This document shows, piece by piece, positions 23,167-26,236 of a stretch of 64,000 nt of DNA. Both the position numbers and the translations under genes were made by a program. Source of the stretch: Lachnospira sp. (GTDB lineage Bacteria > Bacillota > Clostridia > Lachnospirales > Lachnospiraceae); assembly GCA_050874305.1 (NCBI GenBank), contig JBNMKL010000006.1:1651-65650 (forward strand), written 5' to 3'. The notes beneath the pieces are model-generated. The model made no database searches and was not told the origin of the DNA. It was given only the letters and a program-made list of their open reading frames with translations. Within the stretch, counting starts at the first letter, position 1; each line of letters opens with the position of its first letter.

Positions 23167-23277
23167 ATGGAAATTGCAATATGTGTATTCTTAGGTGTAT
23201 GGCTGAGTGCAGCGGCTGTTCTTGGTTACATACAGCTAAAGAAGGATTTTAAAAATGAGAGTGGAGAAAAGAAGTAA
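23167..23277 (+). CDS. 36-aa single-pass membrane protein, probable symporter accessory subunit; absent from the ORF track
   Basis: GGAGG RBS; MEIAICVFLGVWLSAAAVLGYIQLKKDFKNESGEKK; its TAA abuts the symporter ATG. Confidence 0.75.
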   Translation: MEIAICVFLGVWLSAAAVLGYIQLKKDFKNESGEKK

Positions 23278-24867
23278 ATGAATATCTATTTTATAGGAAT
23301 GTGTATTGCTATGGCGATATACCTTATCGTTGGCCTTGTTGTCAGCAAGAAGGTTAATTCTGCCAATGAATTTTATGTTGCAGGTAGAAGGGCACCTATT
23401 ATCCTGATAGCCGGTTCGCTTATAGCATCCTACACAAGTACAGGTATGTTTATGGGTGATGCGGCGCAGTGTTATGAAGGCGTATTCACATCTATACTTA
23501 TATTTGCGGGAATGCAGTCGGCAGGTTACATAATCGGTGCAATCTTTTTCGGAAGATATCTTAGAAGAAGCCAGGTGCTTACAATTCCTGAATTCTTTGG
23601 AAAGCGTTTCTGCTCAAGAAAATTAAGAGTTCTTGCGGCTGTTACAGCTATTATAATGATGTCAGTGTATCTGTTATCGGTTCTTCAGGGAATCGGTACA
23701 CTTATGTCACTTGTAACAGGTGTTAATATCAATGTATGCATGATTCTTGCAATGGTTGTGCTTACTGTTCTTACTGTTGCATCTGGTTCGAGAGGTGTAC
23801 TTATAACTGATACAATTATGGCAAGTATATTCACAATAGCTGTTATTGTTGGAATGGTGTTTATAGCCAAGAATACAGGTGGATGGTTTGGAGCGATTGA
23901 GTCAATTGCATCTAACCCTGCTCTTACAGATTATCTGTCATGGGGAGGCAAGCCTGGCCCATTATATAATACTGGTGTTGAAAATGTTATATGGGGACTT
24001 GCATATGGTGTTGTATGGATGTCTGTATGTATGGTTGGCCCATGGCAGTCAAGCCGTTATCTTATGGCTAAGAATGAACATGCGGTTATCAAGTCAGGTC
24101 CAATAGCGGCTATTGGTGTATTTATACTTGAATTCCTTGTTGGTATGGCTGCTGTTATGGTTAATGTAGTTTATCCAGACATGGAGAGTTCATCAAATGT
24201 TATGATATGGGCAGCTATGAATCTTATGCCTAAGGTTCTCGGTGTTGTTCTTCTTACAGGTGTGCTTTCAGCAGGTATCTCATCAGCAACAACATTCTTA
24301 TCACTTATAGGTGCTTCTGTTGCTAATGACTGCATGCAGAGCGAGGATGATAAATCTATCCGTTACGGAAGAATTACTATGATTATAGTTGCAGTTGTAG
24401 TTCTTGTTGTAGCTGTTATGAATCCACCATCAATATTCTGGATAATGTTCCTTGGTGGTGCTGTTGCGGCAAGTTCATGGATGCCGGTTGCTGTGGCAAG
24501 TATATTCAGCAAGAGGGTTACTAAGACTGGTGCGTTCTGTGGAATGCTTTTTGGAATGCTTGGATGTTTTCTTTTAAAGGTGTACACGAGTGTCAGCGGA
24601 GTGAGCCTTCCGGTATATCTTGACCCAAGTATAGTCGGAATTGTATGTAATGTGATTGCGCTTGTTATAGGTTCAGCACTTACACAGGTTACAGATGAGG
24701 AGAAGCAGGCTAGAGCGGCATTATTCGTTATGCCAGAGTCAGAGAAAGACCCTGCACAGATGAAGTCAACACTCAGATGGACTAAGGCATCAATTCTTAT
24801 CGGAGTTGTTGTGTTCGCAATGCTTATGATTCTGTGGGTTGTTCCATATCTGAATGCGGCGGTGTAA
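23278..24867 (+). CDS. Sodium:solute symporter (SSS) family transporter
   Basis: EFYVAGRR, TIPEFFGKRF, LSAGISS motifs; ~13 TM segments. Confidence 0.9.
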   Translation: MNIYFIGMCIAMAIYLIVGLVVSKKVNSANEFYVAGRRAPIILIAGSLIASYTSTGMFMGDAAQCYEGVFTSILIFAGMQSAGYIIGAIFFGRYLRRSQVLTIPEFFGKRFCSRKLRVLAAVTAIIMMSVYLLSVLQGIGTLMSLVTGVNINVCMILAMVVLTVLTVASGSRGVLITDTIMASIFTIAVIVGMVFIAKNTGGWFGAIESIASNPALTDYLSWGGKPGPLYNTGVENVIWGLAYGVVWMSVCMVGPWQSSRYLMAKNEHAVIKSGPIAAIGVFILEFLVGMAAVMVNVVYPDMESSSNVMIWAAMNLMPKVLGVVLLTGVLSAGISSATTFLSLIGASVANDCMQSEDDKSIRYGRITMIIVAVVVLVVAVMNPPSIFWIMFLGGAVAASSWMPVAVASIFSKRVTKTGAFCGMLFGMLGCFLLKVYTSVSGVSLPVYLDPSIVGIVCNVIALVIGSALTQVTDEEKQARAALFVMPESEKDPAQMKSTLRWTKASILIGVVVFAMLMILWVVPYLNAAV

Positions 24868-24915: not shown

Positions 24916-24944
24916 TTGAATTGGTTATTAGCATATGTTATAAT
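24916..24944 (+). promoter_or_regulatory. Strong sigma-A promoter for the antitoxin RNA
   Basis: TTGAAT (24916-24921), 17 bp, TATAAT (24939-24944), with extended -10 TG at 24936-24937. Confidence 0.75.
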
Positions 24945-24950
24945 GGCGAT

Positions 24951-25029
24951 AGCCAAGAAAGATATAAGAGTGCGTAGACACAAAACGAATCCCCATGAGA
25001 TTGCAGCTCATGGGGATTCTTCTCGTTTT
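24951..25029 (+). ncRNA. Putative type I antitoxin sRNA (~80 nt)
   Basis: No ORF follows the promoter. Carries GAAAGATATAAGA (24957-24969) and CGTAGACAC (24973-24981), complementary to the toxin mRNA on both sides of its start codon. Ends in a 13-bp hairpin (24987-24999 / 25007-25019) plus T-run. Confidence 0.7.
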
Positions 25030-25051
25030 AATCGGTTGAGCATCCGTCAGG

Positions 25052-25147
25052 TTAATTGTCGTTGTTCTTTCTATCTAGCCATTTGCAGATGTAGTAGCCA
25101 ACTACACTTGCCATGATAGAAATAAGGAAAGATATAAGAATATCCAA
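25052..25147 (-). CDS. Type I toxin-antitoxin toxin peptide (Fst/Ldr-like, 31 aa); absent from the ORF track
   Basis: GGAGG RBS 8 nt before TTG; MDILISFLISIMASVVGYYICKWLDRKNNDN: one hydrophobic helix, a conserved-type W and a charged tail. Confidence 0.8.
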   Translation of the reverse strand: MDILISFLISIMASVVGYYICKWLDRKNNDN

Positions 25148-25195
25148 CGTAGACACCTCCCTTCTGTTGCCAGAATGAGTACAACAACAATAGTT

Positions 25196-25204
25196 ATTAT
25201 AACA
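25196..25204 (-). promoter_or_regulatory. Extended -10 promoter for the toxin mRNA
   Basis: TGTTATAAT on the minus strand; -35 is weak. Confidence 0.55.
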
Positions 25205-25246
25205 TAAATATATTAAAAAGAAAAGAATGAAAATATATAAAAAATA

Positions 25247-25281
25247 TACACCCTCATAGAAAATCTTTCTTTGAGGGTGTA
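25247..25281 (-). terminator. Terminator of the CD225-like gene
   Basis: TACACCCTCA / TGAGGGTGTA stem, with a minus-strand T-rich run downstream. Confidence 0.65.
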
Positions 25282-25307: not shown

Positions 25308-26006
25308 TTATCTTATTGCATCTAAAGCAGATGATGCTATTCCGATAATTACTGTCCATGAGATGCCAAAAACTACAGAGATAACAAGCATGATAGTGCA
25401 TATTTTAATGCAGGATTCATATTTGTCGTATCTTCCATAACGGAAATTATTGTTGGCATTAAATAAAAGAATCAGTGCGATAATACCAAATAATCTGCTG
25501 AACAGAATGATGCAGATTATTGAAAATACAAGCAGTGGAGTGAACTTAGGACAGTTCTGTGGCTTGTTGTAGTTGTTATAGCCATTGTTGTATCCATTAG
25601 GCTGGTTATTATAGGTGTTGTTCTGATTATTGTAATTATTATAACCAGAGTTATAGTTATTCTGATTGCTGTTATAGCCGGTATTATAACTGTTCTGGCT
25701 GCCATAACTGTTGTTGTTCTGAGCACCATAGTCGTTATACTGTGAATTATAGCTGTTATTCTGTGAGGTATAATTATTGTTCTGGCTGTCATAACTATTA
25801 TTCTGCGAATTATAACTGTTGTAATCAGAGCTATCAGACTGGCTGTTCTGCGTATTTGTATTATCTGAATAAGATGTATACTCCTTGTTTGGGTCATTAG
25901 AATAATCATCTGTATAACTGCCGTAGTTTCGCTGGCTGTTATCAGAAGATTCATTTGGGTCCTGGTTCTGGTTGTTCCAGAATGGATCTGGTGTATAATT
26001 ATCCAT
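25308..26006 (-). CDS. CD225/dispanin-like membrane protein with long N/Y/S/Q-rich low-complexity N-terminus
   Basis: GAGG RBS before the ATG at 26006; ~150 aa polar low-complexity region, then PLLVFSIICIILFSRLFGIIALILLFNANNNFRYGRYD...IMLVISVVFG, matching the CD225 two-segment pattern. Confidence 0.7.
   Translation of the reverse strand: MDNYTPDPFWNNQNQDPNESSDNSQRNYGSYTDDYSNDPNKEYTSYSDNTNTQNSQSDSSDYNSYNSQNNSYDSQNNNYTSQNNSYNSQYNDYGAQNNNSYGSQNSYNTGYNSNQNNYNSGYNNYNNQNNTYNNQPNGYNNGYNNYNKPQNCPKFTPLLVFSIICIILFSRLFGIIALILLFNANNNFRYGRYDKYESCIKICTIMLVISVVFGISWTVIIGIASSALDAIR
25695..25823 (-). repeat. Imperfect 21-nt coding tandem repeat (~6 units of SQNNSYN-like heptads)
   Basis: Units start on + at 25695, 25719, 25740, 25761, 25782 and 25803 (CTG...ATA...TT). 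Confidence 0.75.
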
Positions 26007-26236
26007 ATATGTCCTCATTTCTTTGCATAATTTAATATATAAATTGCTGATTTCTCATGTTTTGCGGGGTACAAGTTCAAAGCTTTTAACCCTAAAAACA
26101 TAATAAACATACATAAGTAATGCGTCAAGTATAAATTGACTTTAGATACAGTCAGGTAATAATATAAGATAATAACAATATGCAAATGTATTTTGAAGTT
26201 AGATTATAATTTTAATAATAAAGTATATTTTAAAGG

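What the first reader, a model, noticed from the sequence alone, without database searches (positions are those of the whole stretch)
24916..25204. Complete unannotated type I toxin-antitoxin locus with Fst/par-like direct-repeat architecture
Seen: a 31-aa hydrophobic peptide gene (25147-25052, TTG start, GGAGG RBS, extended -10) converges on a short non-coding transcript from a consensus promoter, and both share one 13-bp bidirectional hairpin. The sRNA region repeats two blocks of the toxin start region: GAAAGATATAAGA (24957-24969 = 25127-25139) and CGTAGACAC (24973-24981 = 25148-25156), so the sRNA can pair on both sides of the start codon and leave it looped out. Established: Enterococcus par (Fst/RNAII) uses convergent RNAs, two direct repeats and a shared terminator. 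Inference: a chromosomal type I TA module below the ORF-track cutoff.
Basis: partly seen in the sequence, partly recalled or inferred. Interest (0 to 1): 0.62.

Follow-up and report, generated by a model that had tools for sequence, protein, structure and literature searches.

The report
Fst/par-type toxin–antisense RNA cassette
The 440-bp gap between a transporter gene and a membrane-protein gene holds a complete, unannotated copy of a known kind of module, a 31-residue membrane peptide gene silenced by a convergent antisense RNA; it belongs to a large branch of the Fst/par family that is common in gut Lachnospiraceae, so it is real but not a new kind of system.

Summary
The minus strand encodes MDILISFLISIMASVVGYYICKWLDRKNNDN (25147-25052; GGGAGG, 8 nt, then UUG) behind a TG-extended -10. 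The plus strand carries TTGAAT-17-TGnTATAAT and a ~79-nt RNA. The two transcripts share a 13-bp bidirectional terminator and two direct repeats.

The sRNA can form 25 base pairs across the toxin ribosome-binding region (-33.6 kcal/mol, z = -6.8). The toxin mRNA is the window's only Rfam hit: RF02442 SpF66, 42.6 bits against a cut-off of 42. SpF66 is the pneumococcal F66 RNA, which maps to the fcsR-adcA gap where Fozo et al. validated Fst-A/B.

The genome holds four paralogs. Their repeat sequences differ between loci but match within each locus. More than 550 related loci, mostly in Lachnospiraceae and including small plasmids, keep the same architecture: cognate pairing has a median of -38 kcal/mol against -17 for non-cognate pairs.

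No Pfam or NCBIfam model recognises the peptide, which explains why it is unannotated.

Verdict: a new member of a known kind (Fst/RNA II, par-like type I toxin-antitoxin). Interest is modest.

The parts
24916..24944 (+). Antitoxin sRNA promoter: TTGAAT (24916-24921), 17-nt spacer, TG (24936-24937), TATAAT (24939-24944)
   Evidence: 10 of 12 matches, TG present. In the family the distance from the -10 end to the terminator stem has a median of 43 nt (IQR 41-45), and 66 of 68 loci score at least 10 on the 14-point promoter score (12 hexamer positions plus one point each for a 17-nt spacer and an upstream TG).
24951..25029 (+). Predicted antitoxin sRNA (RNA II analogue), about 79 nt: an unstructured 36-nt 5' tail, then the terminator hairpin and U-tract. 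The ends are inferred, not mapped.
   Evidence: RNAfold leaves the tail essentially unpaired. The start is placed 7 nt after the -10, and the end at the T-run after the hairpin.
24957..24981 (+). sRNA pairing block: DRb' (24957-24971) and DRa' (24972-24981), 25 contiguous nt complementary to the toxin translation-initiation region
   Evidence: Cofold pair list; exact repeats.
24987..25019 (.). Shared bidirectional intrinsic terminator: 13-bp stem, 7-nt loop
   Evidence: scores on both strands. Family stems are mostly 13-14 bp, with compensatory changes.
24979..25190 (-). Predicted toxin mRNA (RNA I analogue), about 212 nt. The ends are inferred.
   Evidence: Rfam RF02442 SpF66_sRNA matches full length, 24979-25197, at 42.6 bits against a gathering score of 42, E = 1e-8. 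MFE is -72.6 kcal/mol.
25052..25147 (-). Toxin ORF, 31 aa: MDILISFLISIMASVVGYYICKWLDRKNNDN (UUG start, TAA stop)
   Evidence: The profile of the 4 paralogs finds 1166 clusters at E <= 1e-3 among 1.84 billion representatives.
25127..25156 (-). Toxin translation-initiation region bound by the sRNA: DRa (25156-25147, from the last G of the SD to the first U of UUG), a 5-nt bulge (25146-25142), and DRb (25141-25127, codons 3-7)
   Evidence: 10 + 15 bp, -33.6 kcal/mol; 500 shuffles give mean -12.6, sd 3.1, z = -6.8.
25156..25161 (-). Shine-Dalgarno GGGAGG, 8 nt upstream of UUG
   Evidence: Across 73 loci the SD-to-start spacing is mostly 5-8 nt, range 4-12.
25157..25179 (-). 5' stem-loop of the toxin mRNA (CUC-A-UUCUG-GCAA-CAGAA-GG-GAG) that pairs part of the SD
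   Evidence: MFE. In the family the anti-SD co-varies with the SD (CCC with GGGGG, CUCC with GGAGG).
25181..25190 (-). mRNA 5' end (UUGUUGUUGU), which pairs with ACAACGACAA at about 25066-25057 (the last codons of the ORF), closing the whole ORF in a long-range helix
   Evidence: MFE. RNAalifold columns 12-15 with 145-148 show compensatory changes, e.g. UA in 15 sequences and CG in 11.
25196..25204 (-). Toxin promoter: TG-extended -10 (TGTTATAAT) with a weak -35
   Evidence: An 11-nt identity with the sRNA promoter (TATGTTATAAT) appears as inverted repeat I5. In the family TATAAT occurs in 51 of 72 loci and the TG in 50 of 72.
25247..25281 (-). Terminator hairpin of the upstream gene (25308-26018, minus strand). 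It is not part of the module but insulates the toxin promoter from read-through.
   Evidence: Inverted repeat I4: 16-nt arms, 94% complementary, followed by a T-run on the minus strand.

Best explanation
This is a chromosomal type I toxin-antitoxin module of the Fst/RNA II (par) type.

A TG-extended -10 promoter drives an mRNA of about 212 nt on the minus strand for a 31-residue peptide. The peptide has one transmembrane helix, a conserved Trp and a charged tail. The mRNA is built to be poorly translated. Its 5' stem-loop pairs part of the Shine-Dalgarno sequence, and its 5' end pairs with the last codons of the ORF.

A near-consensus promoter on the plus strand drives a convergent sRNA of about 79 nt. 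The two RNAs share the bidirectional terminator, so their stem-loops are complementary. The sRNA's single-stranded 5' tail pairs through two direct-repeat blocks with the region running from the last base of the SD to codon 7. That pairing blocks ribosome loading and so prevents toxin synthesis.

Status of each step:
- Shown here: the sequence elements, their significance, the predicted pairing and structures, and their conservation and covariation across paralogs and homologs.
- Inferred: that both RNAs are made, that pairing represses translation, that the peptide damages the membrane when over-made, and what biological role the module plays.
- For the role, plasmid or locus maintenance is likely for the plasmid-borne relatives. 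The role of this chromosomal copy is unknown.
For: 1. All elements are present and non-random.
2. The sRNA tail pairs with the translation-initiation region through 25 bp with a 5-nt bulge, at -33.6 kcal/mol and z = -6.8. The sRNA tail is unstructured.
3. Rfam RF02442 hits the toxin mRNA full length and above the gathering score. It is the only gathering-level hit in the 64 kb.
4. RF02442 is F66/srn502: 239 nt, Northern-positive, lying between SP2168 and SP2169 (PMC3395615). That is the fcsR-adcA gap where Fst-A/B were validated by an antisense-RNA Northern blot and by toxicity in E. coli (PMC2887945). The model consensus translates to ...ADVIAG...CKWLDGKE, which fits the pneumococcal DXXXG clade described in PMC7472228.
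5. The genome holds four paralogs. Their DR sequences differ between loci and match within each locus. The 4x4 pairing matrix is diagonal: -31.6 to -37.4 kcal/mol for cognate pairs against -10.4 to -25.1 off the diagonal.
6. Across the family, the longest direct repeat in 75 loci has a median of 13 nt against 7 in cross-locus controls. In 68 loci the cognate duplex median is -38.0 against -17.4 kcal/mol, and 93% of cognates fall below the 5th percentile of non-cognates. Both promoters sit at fixed distances from the other elements.
7. RNAalifold finds compensatory changes in the 5'-3' helix, the SD helix, an intra-ORF helix and the terminator.
8. The peptide is conserved (YYICKW invariant). 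Codon-like third-position variation also appears at the L and D codons, which lie outside the search pattern.
9. Relatives with the same architecture sit next to rep genes on small plasmids of 4.5 and 6.9 kb.
Against:
- Toxicity and repression were not tested.
- Curated protein models do not recognise the peptide. NF033608 (Fst) gives 13.1 bits against a cut-off of 26. None of 33 family members passes, the best reaching E = 0.025. Pfam finds no toxin family.
- The Rfam score is only 0.6 bits above the cut-off, and the other three paralogs fall below it at 37.5, 27.7 and 25.6 bits.
- The P/D/S/T-XXX-G motif of most Fst toxins is absent (ASVVG here, and the G is not conserved in the clade).
- Neither terminator loop contains a YUNR U-turn (CUGCAAU and AUUGCAG).
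- The toxin promoter has a poor -35.
- The covariation counts involve related sequences and are not independent events.
Confidence: 0.85

Rival explanations
1. The architecture is real, but the peptide is not a toxin in any useful sense. On this reading it is an antisense-regulated small membrane protein with a physiological role, such as modulating a transporter or a stress response, and it causes no addiction or killing at native levels.
For: The copy lies between ordinary chromosomal genes: an AMP-binding enzyme and an SSF symporter on one side, RluA and ProRS on the other. The three other paralogs also lie among metabolic genes with no mobile-element genes within 1.5 kb. Reviews note that the function of chromosomal Fst loci is unresolved (PMC7472228).
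Against: The closest characterised relatives are toxic on over-expression (pneumococcal Fst-B; PMC2887945). The elaborate double lock on translation (SD hairpin, 5'-3' helix and sRNA) is typical of genes whose product is harmful. The patchy distribution (26 of 81 genomes of the family, 1-5 copies each) and the plasmid-borne copies beside rep genes fit selfish or addiction behaviour.
Confidence: 0.1
2. This is a family of its own that converged on the par architecture and is not homologous to Fst. The match to SpF66 and the W-plus-charged-tail signature would then reflect shared constraints on short membrane toxins.
For: The protein HMMs for Fst fail. Of 33 members, 27 give weak matches to the C. 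difficile type I toxin model NF047374, the best at E = 1.4e-4 and far below the 60-bit cut-off. The PXXXG motif and the U-turn are absent.
Against: The Rfam covariance model aligns over its full 239 positions, including the conserved CAAAUGGCUAGA block that encodes CKWLD. The pneumococcal clade shares the ...CKWLD... C-terminus. Fozo et al. already placed a Clostridium bolteae (Lachnospiraceae) sequence in their Ldr/Fst alignment and reported Fst-like sequences in Clostridiales. All the RNA features listed as conserved in par-family loci are present.
Confidence: 0.1
3. The cassette is an inactive relic, or the repeats are a by-product of a local duplication and have no regulatory role.
For: None specific. 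There is only the lack of expression data.
Against: The ORF, the SD, both promoters, the terminator and both repeats are all intact. The repeats are locus-specific yet matched within each of about 70 loci, which neutral duplication does not explain.
Confidence: 0.03

Closest known systems
Streptococcus pneumoniae Fst-A/Fst-B loci (toxin mRNA F66/srn502 = Rfam RF02442 SpF66_sRNA; Fozo et al. 2010, Mann et al. 2012)
   Same: The toxin mRNA matches the RF02442 covariance model full length and above its cut-off. The peptides are of similar length and share a ...CKWLD... motif followed by a charged tail. Both have an antisense sRNA of about 65-80 nt at the 3' side, occur in several chromosomal copies, and are usually missed by annotation.
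   Different: The host is a Lachnospiraceae genome rather than a Streptococcus. The peptide has ASVVG where the pneumococcal clade has DXXXG. The score is only marginally above the cut-off. Here the four copies are dispersed on different contigs, whereas Fst-A and Fst-B are in tandem.
par of Enterococcus faecalis plasmid pAD1 (Fst toxin mRNA RNA I, antitoxin RNA II)
   Same: Both have convergent promoters, a shared bidirectional intrinsic terminator, two direct repeats (DRa, DRb) transcribed in opposite directions that give complementarity at the toxin initiation region, a 5' stem-loop that sequesters the SD, a sequestered 5' end, and a toxin of about 30 aa with a transmembrane helix and charged tail (PMC7472228).
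   Different: This copy is chromosomal. Neither terminator loop has a YUNR U-turn, and there is no PXXXG motif. The 5' end pairs with the end of the ORF as a long-range helix. The Fst protein HMM does not score significantly. Plasmid stabilisation is not applicable to this copy.
SprA1/SprA1AS of Staphylococcus aureus (an Fst homologue)
   Same: The toxin mRNA and antisense RNA overlap at their 3' ends, but the functional pairing lies outside the overlap, at the toxin translation-initiation region (PMC8594479). The peptide has the W-plus-basic-tail C-terminus (from my own knowledge).
   Different: It belongs to a different peptide clade. Its regulation in S. aureus has been mapped experimentally, whereas nothing has been mapped here.

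Membership tests
Fst/RNA II (par-like) type I TA | Convergently transcribed toxin mRNA and antitoxin sRNA | tested here: inconclusive
   Both promoters are present and conserved in position across the family.
Fst/RNA II (par-like) type I TA | Shared bidirectional intrinsic terminator | tested here: met
   The 13-bp hairpin at 24987-25019 scores on both strands. Stems of 13-14 bp predominate in the family (50 of 68 loci; range 7-16 bp), with compensatory changes.
Fst/RNA II (par-like) type I TA | Two direct repeats (DRa, DRb) giving sRNA-mRNA complementarity at the toxin SD and start | tested here: met
   Exact repeats of 13 and 9 nt extend to 15 + 10 bp with wobble pairs, at -33.6 kcal/mol and z = -6.8. 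Family-wide, cognate pairing is -38 against -17 kcal/mol for non-cognate.
Fst/RNA II (par-like) type I TA | Intramolecular structure in the toxin mRNA sequestering the SD (5'-SL) and the 5' end | tested here: met
   MFE. RNAalifold shows an SD helix (columns 16-22 with 39-42) and a 5'-3' helix (columns 12-15 with 145-148), both with compensatory changes. The anti-SD co-varies with the SD type.
Fst/RNA II (par-like) type I TA | YUNR U-turn in the toxin mRNA terminator loop, which starts the kissing complex | tested here: not met
   The loops are CUGCAAU (mRNA) and AUUGCAG (sRNA), and neither contains a [CU]U[N][AG] tetramer. The review notes that not all homologs have this motif.
Fst/Ldr toxin superfamily (peptide signature, Weaver 2020) | Peptide of about 30 aa with a hydrophobic TM helix, a conserved Trp, then a highly charged C-terminus | tested here: met
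   Residues DILISFLISIMASVVGYYIC-K-W23-LDRKNNDN. W is invariant in 33 of 33 aligned members.
Fst/Ldr toxin superfamily (peptide signature, Weaver 2020) | P/D/S/T-XXX-G(C) motif inside the TM helix (present in 'the majority') | tested here: not met
   The sequence here is A13-S14-V-V-G17, i.e. S-XX-G. Position 17 varies between G, A and S across the clade.
NCBIfam NF033608 type_I_tox_Fst / Pfam Fst and Ldr toxin models | Score at or above the curated cut-off | tested here: not met
   NF033608 gives 13.1 bits against a cut-off of 26, matching only the last 9 residues. None of 33 members passes (best E = 0.025). Pfam finds no Fst family, and Ldr_toxin matches 1 of 33 members at E = 0.065.
Rfam RF02442 SpF66_sRNA (pneumococcal Fst toxin mRNA) | Bit score at or above the gathering score over the full model | tested here: met
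   42.6 bits against 42, model positions 1-239 of 239, E = 1e-8. The margin is small. The paralogs score 37.5, 27.7 and 25.6 bits.
Type I toxin-antitoxin system (functional definition) | The peptide is toxic when expressed, and the sRNA prevents its synthesis | not testable with these tools
   This needs induction and repression experiments. The only support is by analogy with pneumococcal Fst-B.

The most novel reading that the evidence does not exclude
The Lachnospiraceae 'YYICKWLD' clade may be more than an unannotated branch of Fst. On this reading it would be a separately evolving subfamily whose chromosomal copies have a host function, such as phage abortive infection or stress-triggered growth arrest, rather than addiction. 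Each copy would be wired through its own private sRNA-mRNA code. This 2.65-Mb genome holds four dispersed, mutually insulated copies. Their mRNAs also carry a covarying long-range helix between the 5' end and the ORF end, which would make toxin translation depend on 3' or 5' processing, as it does for hok and aapA1.
Probability: 0.15. Interest if true: 0.5.

Novelty: new member of a known kind. Interest (0 to 1): 0.3.

Why it matters
The practical value is for annotation. This branch of the Fst/par family is abundant in gut Clostridia and their small plasmids. At least 553 loci occur in species-representative genomes, and 1166 clusters at 50% identity match the profile. About a third of sampled genomes in this bacterial family carry 1-5 copies. 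Yet no Pfam or NCBIfam model sees the branch, and where a gene is called at all it is named 'hypothetical protein'.

The locus-specific, co-varying repeat pairs are a clean natural data set on how paralogous antisense systems stay insulated from one another. The cassettes could also serve as counter-selection or plasmid-stabilisation parts for Lachnospiraceae, which are hard to manipulate genetically. None of this changes what is known about how type I systems work.

Tried and rejected
I used the search for related loci and the search of protein representatives instead.
- Pfam and NCBIfam gave only sub-threshold noise: ATPase_gene1, LydA holin, GntP transporter and the C. difficile type I toxin model. 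I did not take the holin and transporter hits as meaningful, since they are generic matches to a transmembrane helix.
- The other Rfam sub-threshold hits in the region (mir-3118 on the terminator, SpF61 on the promoter, tsr31 and sR084 on the neighbouring terminator) were dismissed as chance, with E between 0.1 and 10.
- The GTG start at 25156 (34 aa) was rejected because it has no spacing from the SD and homologs begin at the UUG position.
- An empty-site comparison failed. The symporter next to the locus is found in only one same-genus genome (G009), where a different gene follows it and the toxin homologue sits on another contig. Synteny is too poor to define an insertion site.
- A literature search for the peptide motif YYICKWL found nothing. 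The supplements of Fozo et al. are not held, so I could not check that their C. bolteae sequence belongs to this exact clade.
- A bare 'SpF66' search returned only malaria-vaccine papers. The link was made through F66/srn502 instead.
Full report
**The observation**

- On the plus strand, TTGAAT-17-TATAAT with an upstream TG lies at 24916-24944 (10 of 12 matches).
- A 13-bp, GC-rich hairpin at 24987-25019 is scored as terminator-like on both strands.
- On the minus strand the order is TGTTATAAT (25204-25196), GGGAGG (25161-25156), an 8-nt spacer, UUG (25147), and an open frame to the TAA at 25054-25052. The product is MDILISFLISIMASVVGYYICKWLDRKNNDN.
- The two direct repeats are exact. GAAAGATATAAGA (24957-69 and 25127-39) occurs nowhere else in the 64 kb, with 0.00 copies expected by shuffling. 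CGTAGACAC (24973-81 and 25148-56) also occurs only twice, with 0.11 expected. One search reports both.
- One search also shows that the two convergent promoters share an identical 11-nt TATGTTATAAT.
- The hairpin at 25247-25281 is the terminator of the neighbouring gene (25308-26018, minus strand), so the toxin promoter is insulated from read-through.

**Predicted RNAs and their interaction**

The sRNA would run from about 24951 to about 25029, roughly 79 nt. Its 36-nt 5' tail is essentially unstructured and is followed by the terminator hairpin.

Co-folding the tail with the toxin initiation region gives 25 contiguous sRNA nucleotides (24957-24981) in pairs. Ten pairs are with mRNA 25156-25147, running from the last G of the SD to the first U of the UUG start. 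Fifteen pairs are with 25141-25127, which is codons 3-7. A 5-nt bulge in the mRNA (25146-25142) holds the UG of the start codon and codon 2. The energy is -33.6 kcal/mol, against -12.6 ± 3.1 for 500 shuffled tails, so z = -6.8.

The toxin mRNA, about 25190 to 24979, folds at -72.6 kcal/mol into three main elements:
- a 5' hairpin (CUC-A-UUCUG-GCAA-CAGAA-GG-GAG) that occupies part of the SD;
- a 10-bp helix between the extreme 5' end (UUGUUGUUGU) and the last codons of the ORF (ACAACGACAA);
- the terminator.

**What it matches**

A scan of the whole window against Rfam at gathering thresholds gives exactly one hit. It is RF02442, SpF66_sRNA, on 24979-25197 of the minus strand, covering the full model at 42.6 bits against a cut-off of 42.

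F66/srn502 is a 239-nt, Northern-confirmed RNA of S. pneumoniae TIGR4 lying between SP2168 and SP2169 (PMC3395615). Fozo et al. placed the tandem Fst-A and Fst-B toxin genes in the fcsR-adcA gap. For Fst-B they showed an antisense RNA of about 65-75 nt by Northern blot and toxicity in E. coli (PMC2887945). The D39V re-annotation lists these loci as Fst-family type I systems that earlier annotations had omitted (PMC6212727).

The consensus of the Rfam model, as printed, reads in frame ...A-D-V-I-A-G...C-K-W-L-D-G-K-E-stop. That is a DXXXG peptide with the same CKWLD block as ours. Weaver's review describes one pneumococcal clade with DXXXG (PMC7472228). Equating RF02442 with an Fst toxin mRNA therefore rests on location plus my reading of this consensus.

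**Paralogs**

The genome is 2.65 Mb in 81 contigs, and the window is C6:1651-65650. It has four copies, on C6, C16, C39 and C34.

All four have the same layout, but the sequences of the two repeat blocks are different in each copy and matched within each copy. Examples are GTGTCATAT and TTTTCATCATTT in C16, CGTGGACA and ATATTGTCATT in C39, and GATGTCTTATAAA and ATGTTTATGA in C34.

The predicted pairing-energy matrix is diagonal. Cognate pairs give -31.6 to -37.4 kcal/mol, and non-cognate pairs give -10.4 to -25.1. The copies should therefore be mutually insulated, as reported for par(pAD1) and par(EF0409).

The position of the start codon relative to the duplex varies between copies. It sits in a bulge here, in an 8x8 internal loop in C16, and inside a helix in C39 and C34. 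The 'looped-out start' is therefore not a conserved feature. Coverage of the initiation region by the duplex is.

**The family**

Of these, 553 were confirmed. They are overwhelmingly from Lachnospiraceae and other Clostridia, including Blautia, Hungatella, Butyrivibrio, Pseudobutyrivibrio, Enterocloster, Roseburia and Fusicatenibacter. A profile of the four paralogs finds 1166 clusters at E <= 1e-3 among 1.84 billion representatives.

Measurements on the loci with enough flank:

| Feature | Loci | Result |
|---|---|---|
| Longest direct repeat between the toxin 5' region and the post-terminator region | 75 | median 13 nt, against 7 nt in cross-locus controls |
| Repeat positions | first 30 of the 75 listed | one between the SD and the start, one at codons 3-8, in most of those listed |
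| Cognate tail-to-initiation-region duplex | 68 | median -38.0 against -17.4 kcal/mol for non-cognate pairs; 93% of cognates below the 5th percentile of non-cognates |
| Terminator stem length | 68 | mostly 13-14 bp |
| sRNA promoter position | 68 | -10 end lies 43 nt (IQR 41-45) from the stem; TG-extended in 48 |
| Toxin promoter | 72 | TATAAT in 51, TG-extended in 50; lies 35 nt (IQR 33-37) from the SD |

The 5' UTR is conserved as GUUGUCGCACCC-AUUCUG-GCAA-CAGAA-A-GGGGGUG. Its anti-SD changes with the SD: CCC with GGGGG, CUCC with GGAGG.

RNAalifold on 30 toxin mRNAs supports four helices, each with compensatory changes:
- the 5'-3' helix, for example UA in 15 sequences and CG in 11 at one pair;
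- the SD helix;
- an intra-ORF helix;
- the terminator.

These counts involve related sequences and are not independent events.

The peptide is strongly conserved. A13 and Y18-W23 are invariant, and F7, S10, L24 and D25 are at least 90% conserved. DNA variation is concentrated at third codon positions, including the L and D codons that were not part of the search pattern.

**Distribution and context**

The family is patchy. It is found in 26 of 81 sampled genomes of the same taxonomic family, at 1-5 copies each, and in only a few genomes of the same genus.

Here it lies between an AMP-binding enzyme plus SSF symporter on one side and an N/Q-rich membrane protein, RluA and ProRS on the other. 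The other three copies are also among metabolic genes.

The only same-genus genome that has the neighbouring symporter has a different gene downstream of it and carries its toxin homologue elsewhere. I could not define an empty site.

Relatives also occur, unannotated, on small plasmids. They lie directly downstream of the rep gene on the 4.5-kb Mogibacterium neglectum plasmid p_Mneg2 and on a 6.9-kb Mediterraneibacter gnavus plasmid, both with the full architecture. The peptide search alone (architecture not examined) also hits Ligilactobacillus salivarius and Streptococcus suis plasmids and a few phage or virome records.

**Why it is unannotated**

Neither Pfam nor NCBIfam recognises the peptide. 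NF033608 (Fst) gives 13.1 bits against a cut-off of 26, and none of 33 members passes. The exact peptide is absent from a collection of 15 billion proteins. Of the six called homologs I looked up, one carries a name ('hypothetical protein') and five carry none.

**Comparison with the known**

By Weaver's list, the following par features are present:
- convergent promoters;
- a bidirectional terminator;
- DRa and DRb;
- SD sequestration;
- 5'-end sequestration;
- the signature of a TM helix, a Trp and a charged tail.

The following are not met:
- the YUNR U-turn, which the review says is not universal;
- the P/D/S/T-XXX-G motif, which the review says occurs in 'the majority';
- the protein HMM cut-offs.

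Fozo et al. had already reported Fst-like sequences in Clostridiales and aligned one from Clostridium bolteae. T1TAdb notes that automated RNA annotation recovers only 29% of Fst/RNA II loci.

I therefore file this as a new member of a known kind. It sits in a large, under-annotated Lachnospiraceae branch whose closest characterised relatives are the pneumococcal Fst loci.

**Earlier notes of this scan**

I consulted these after forming my reading. My reading was stated and the notes were read. They report the same family in other genomes and reach the same conclusion. They are AI notes and not independent evidence, but they agree with what I tested here.

**Limits**

- No transcript, toxicity or repression data exist for this locus.
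- Transcript ends are inferred from promoter and terminator motifs.
- The Rfam score is marginal.
- Homology to enterococcal Fst, as opposed to convergence, is not proven by any protein score obtained here.

Noticed in passing
window 25308-26018 (-): A 236-aa protein has a long N/Y/S/Q-rich, low-complexity N-terminal part and a C-terminal membrane segment. Pfam gives no hit at E <= 1e-3. An earlier first-reader note calls it a prion-like domain fused to a CD225/dispanin domain. I did not examine it.
   Followed up: no
window 23167-23277 (+): A 36-aa hydrophobic ORF (MEIAICVFLGVWLSAAAVLGYIQLKKDFKNESGEKK) ends 1 nt before the SSF symporter gene (23278-24867). It looks like a small membrane accessory subunit translationally coupled to the transporter. 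Pfam gives no hit.
   Followed up: no
G000 C16:5865-6081, C39:20058-20272, C34:20813-21030 (loci L002-L004): Three further complete copies of the same toxin-sRNA cassette occur in this genome. Each has its own matched pair of direct repeats and a peptide of 26-28 aa, and all lie between ordinary metabolic genes.
   Followed up: yes
related loci L012-L091: The toxin mRNAs fall into two length classes, about 175-185 nt and about 200-217 nt. The difference lies in the segment between the stop codon and the terminator. This window's copy belongs to the long class. The meaning is unknown.
   Followed up: partly
protein hits P0001, P0002, P0019, P0053, P0068: Some database proteins contain two matches to the toxin profile within one 60-105-aa call, and many others carry long N- or C-terminal extensions. 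These are probably tandem cassettes or mis-called starts and stops. I did not inspect them.
   Followed up: no
phage records PQ006183, PQ006100, PQ006166 ('bajarodino virus', 7-8.5 kb, rodent faecal viromes) and MT835565, MT838020: Peptide homologs at 45-61% identity occur in small viral or virome records, unannotated or lying under unrelated annotations. The cassette may also travel on small phages.
   Followed up: no
window 24934-24944 and 25196-25206: The toxin and antitoxin promoters share an identical 11-nt extended -10 block (TATGTTATAAT) in inverted orientation (I5). Beyond the conserved TGnTATAAT this may be chance.
   Followed up: partly
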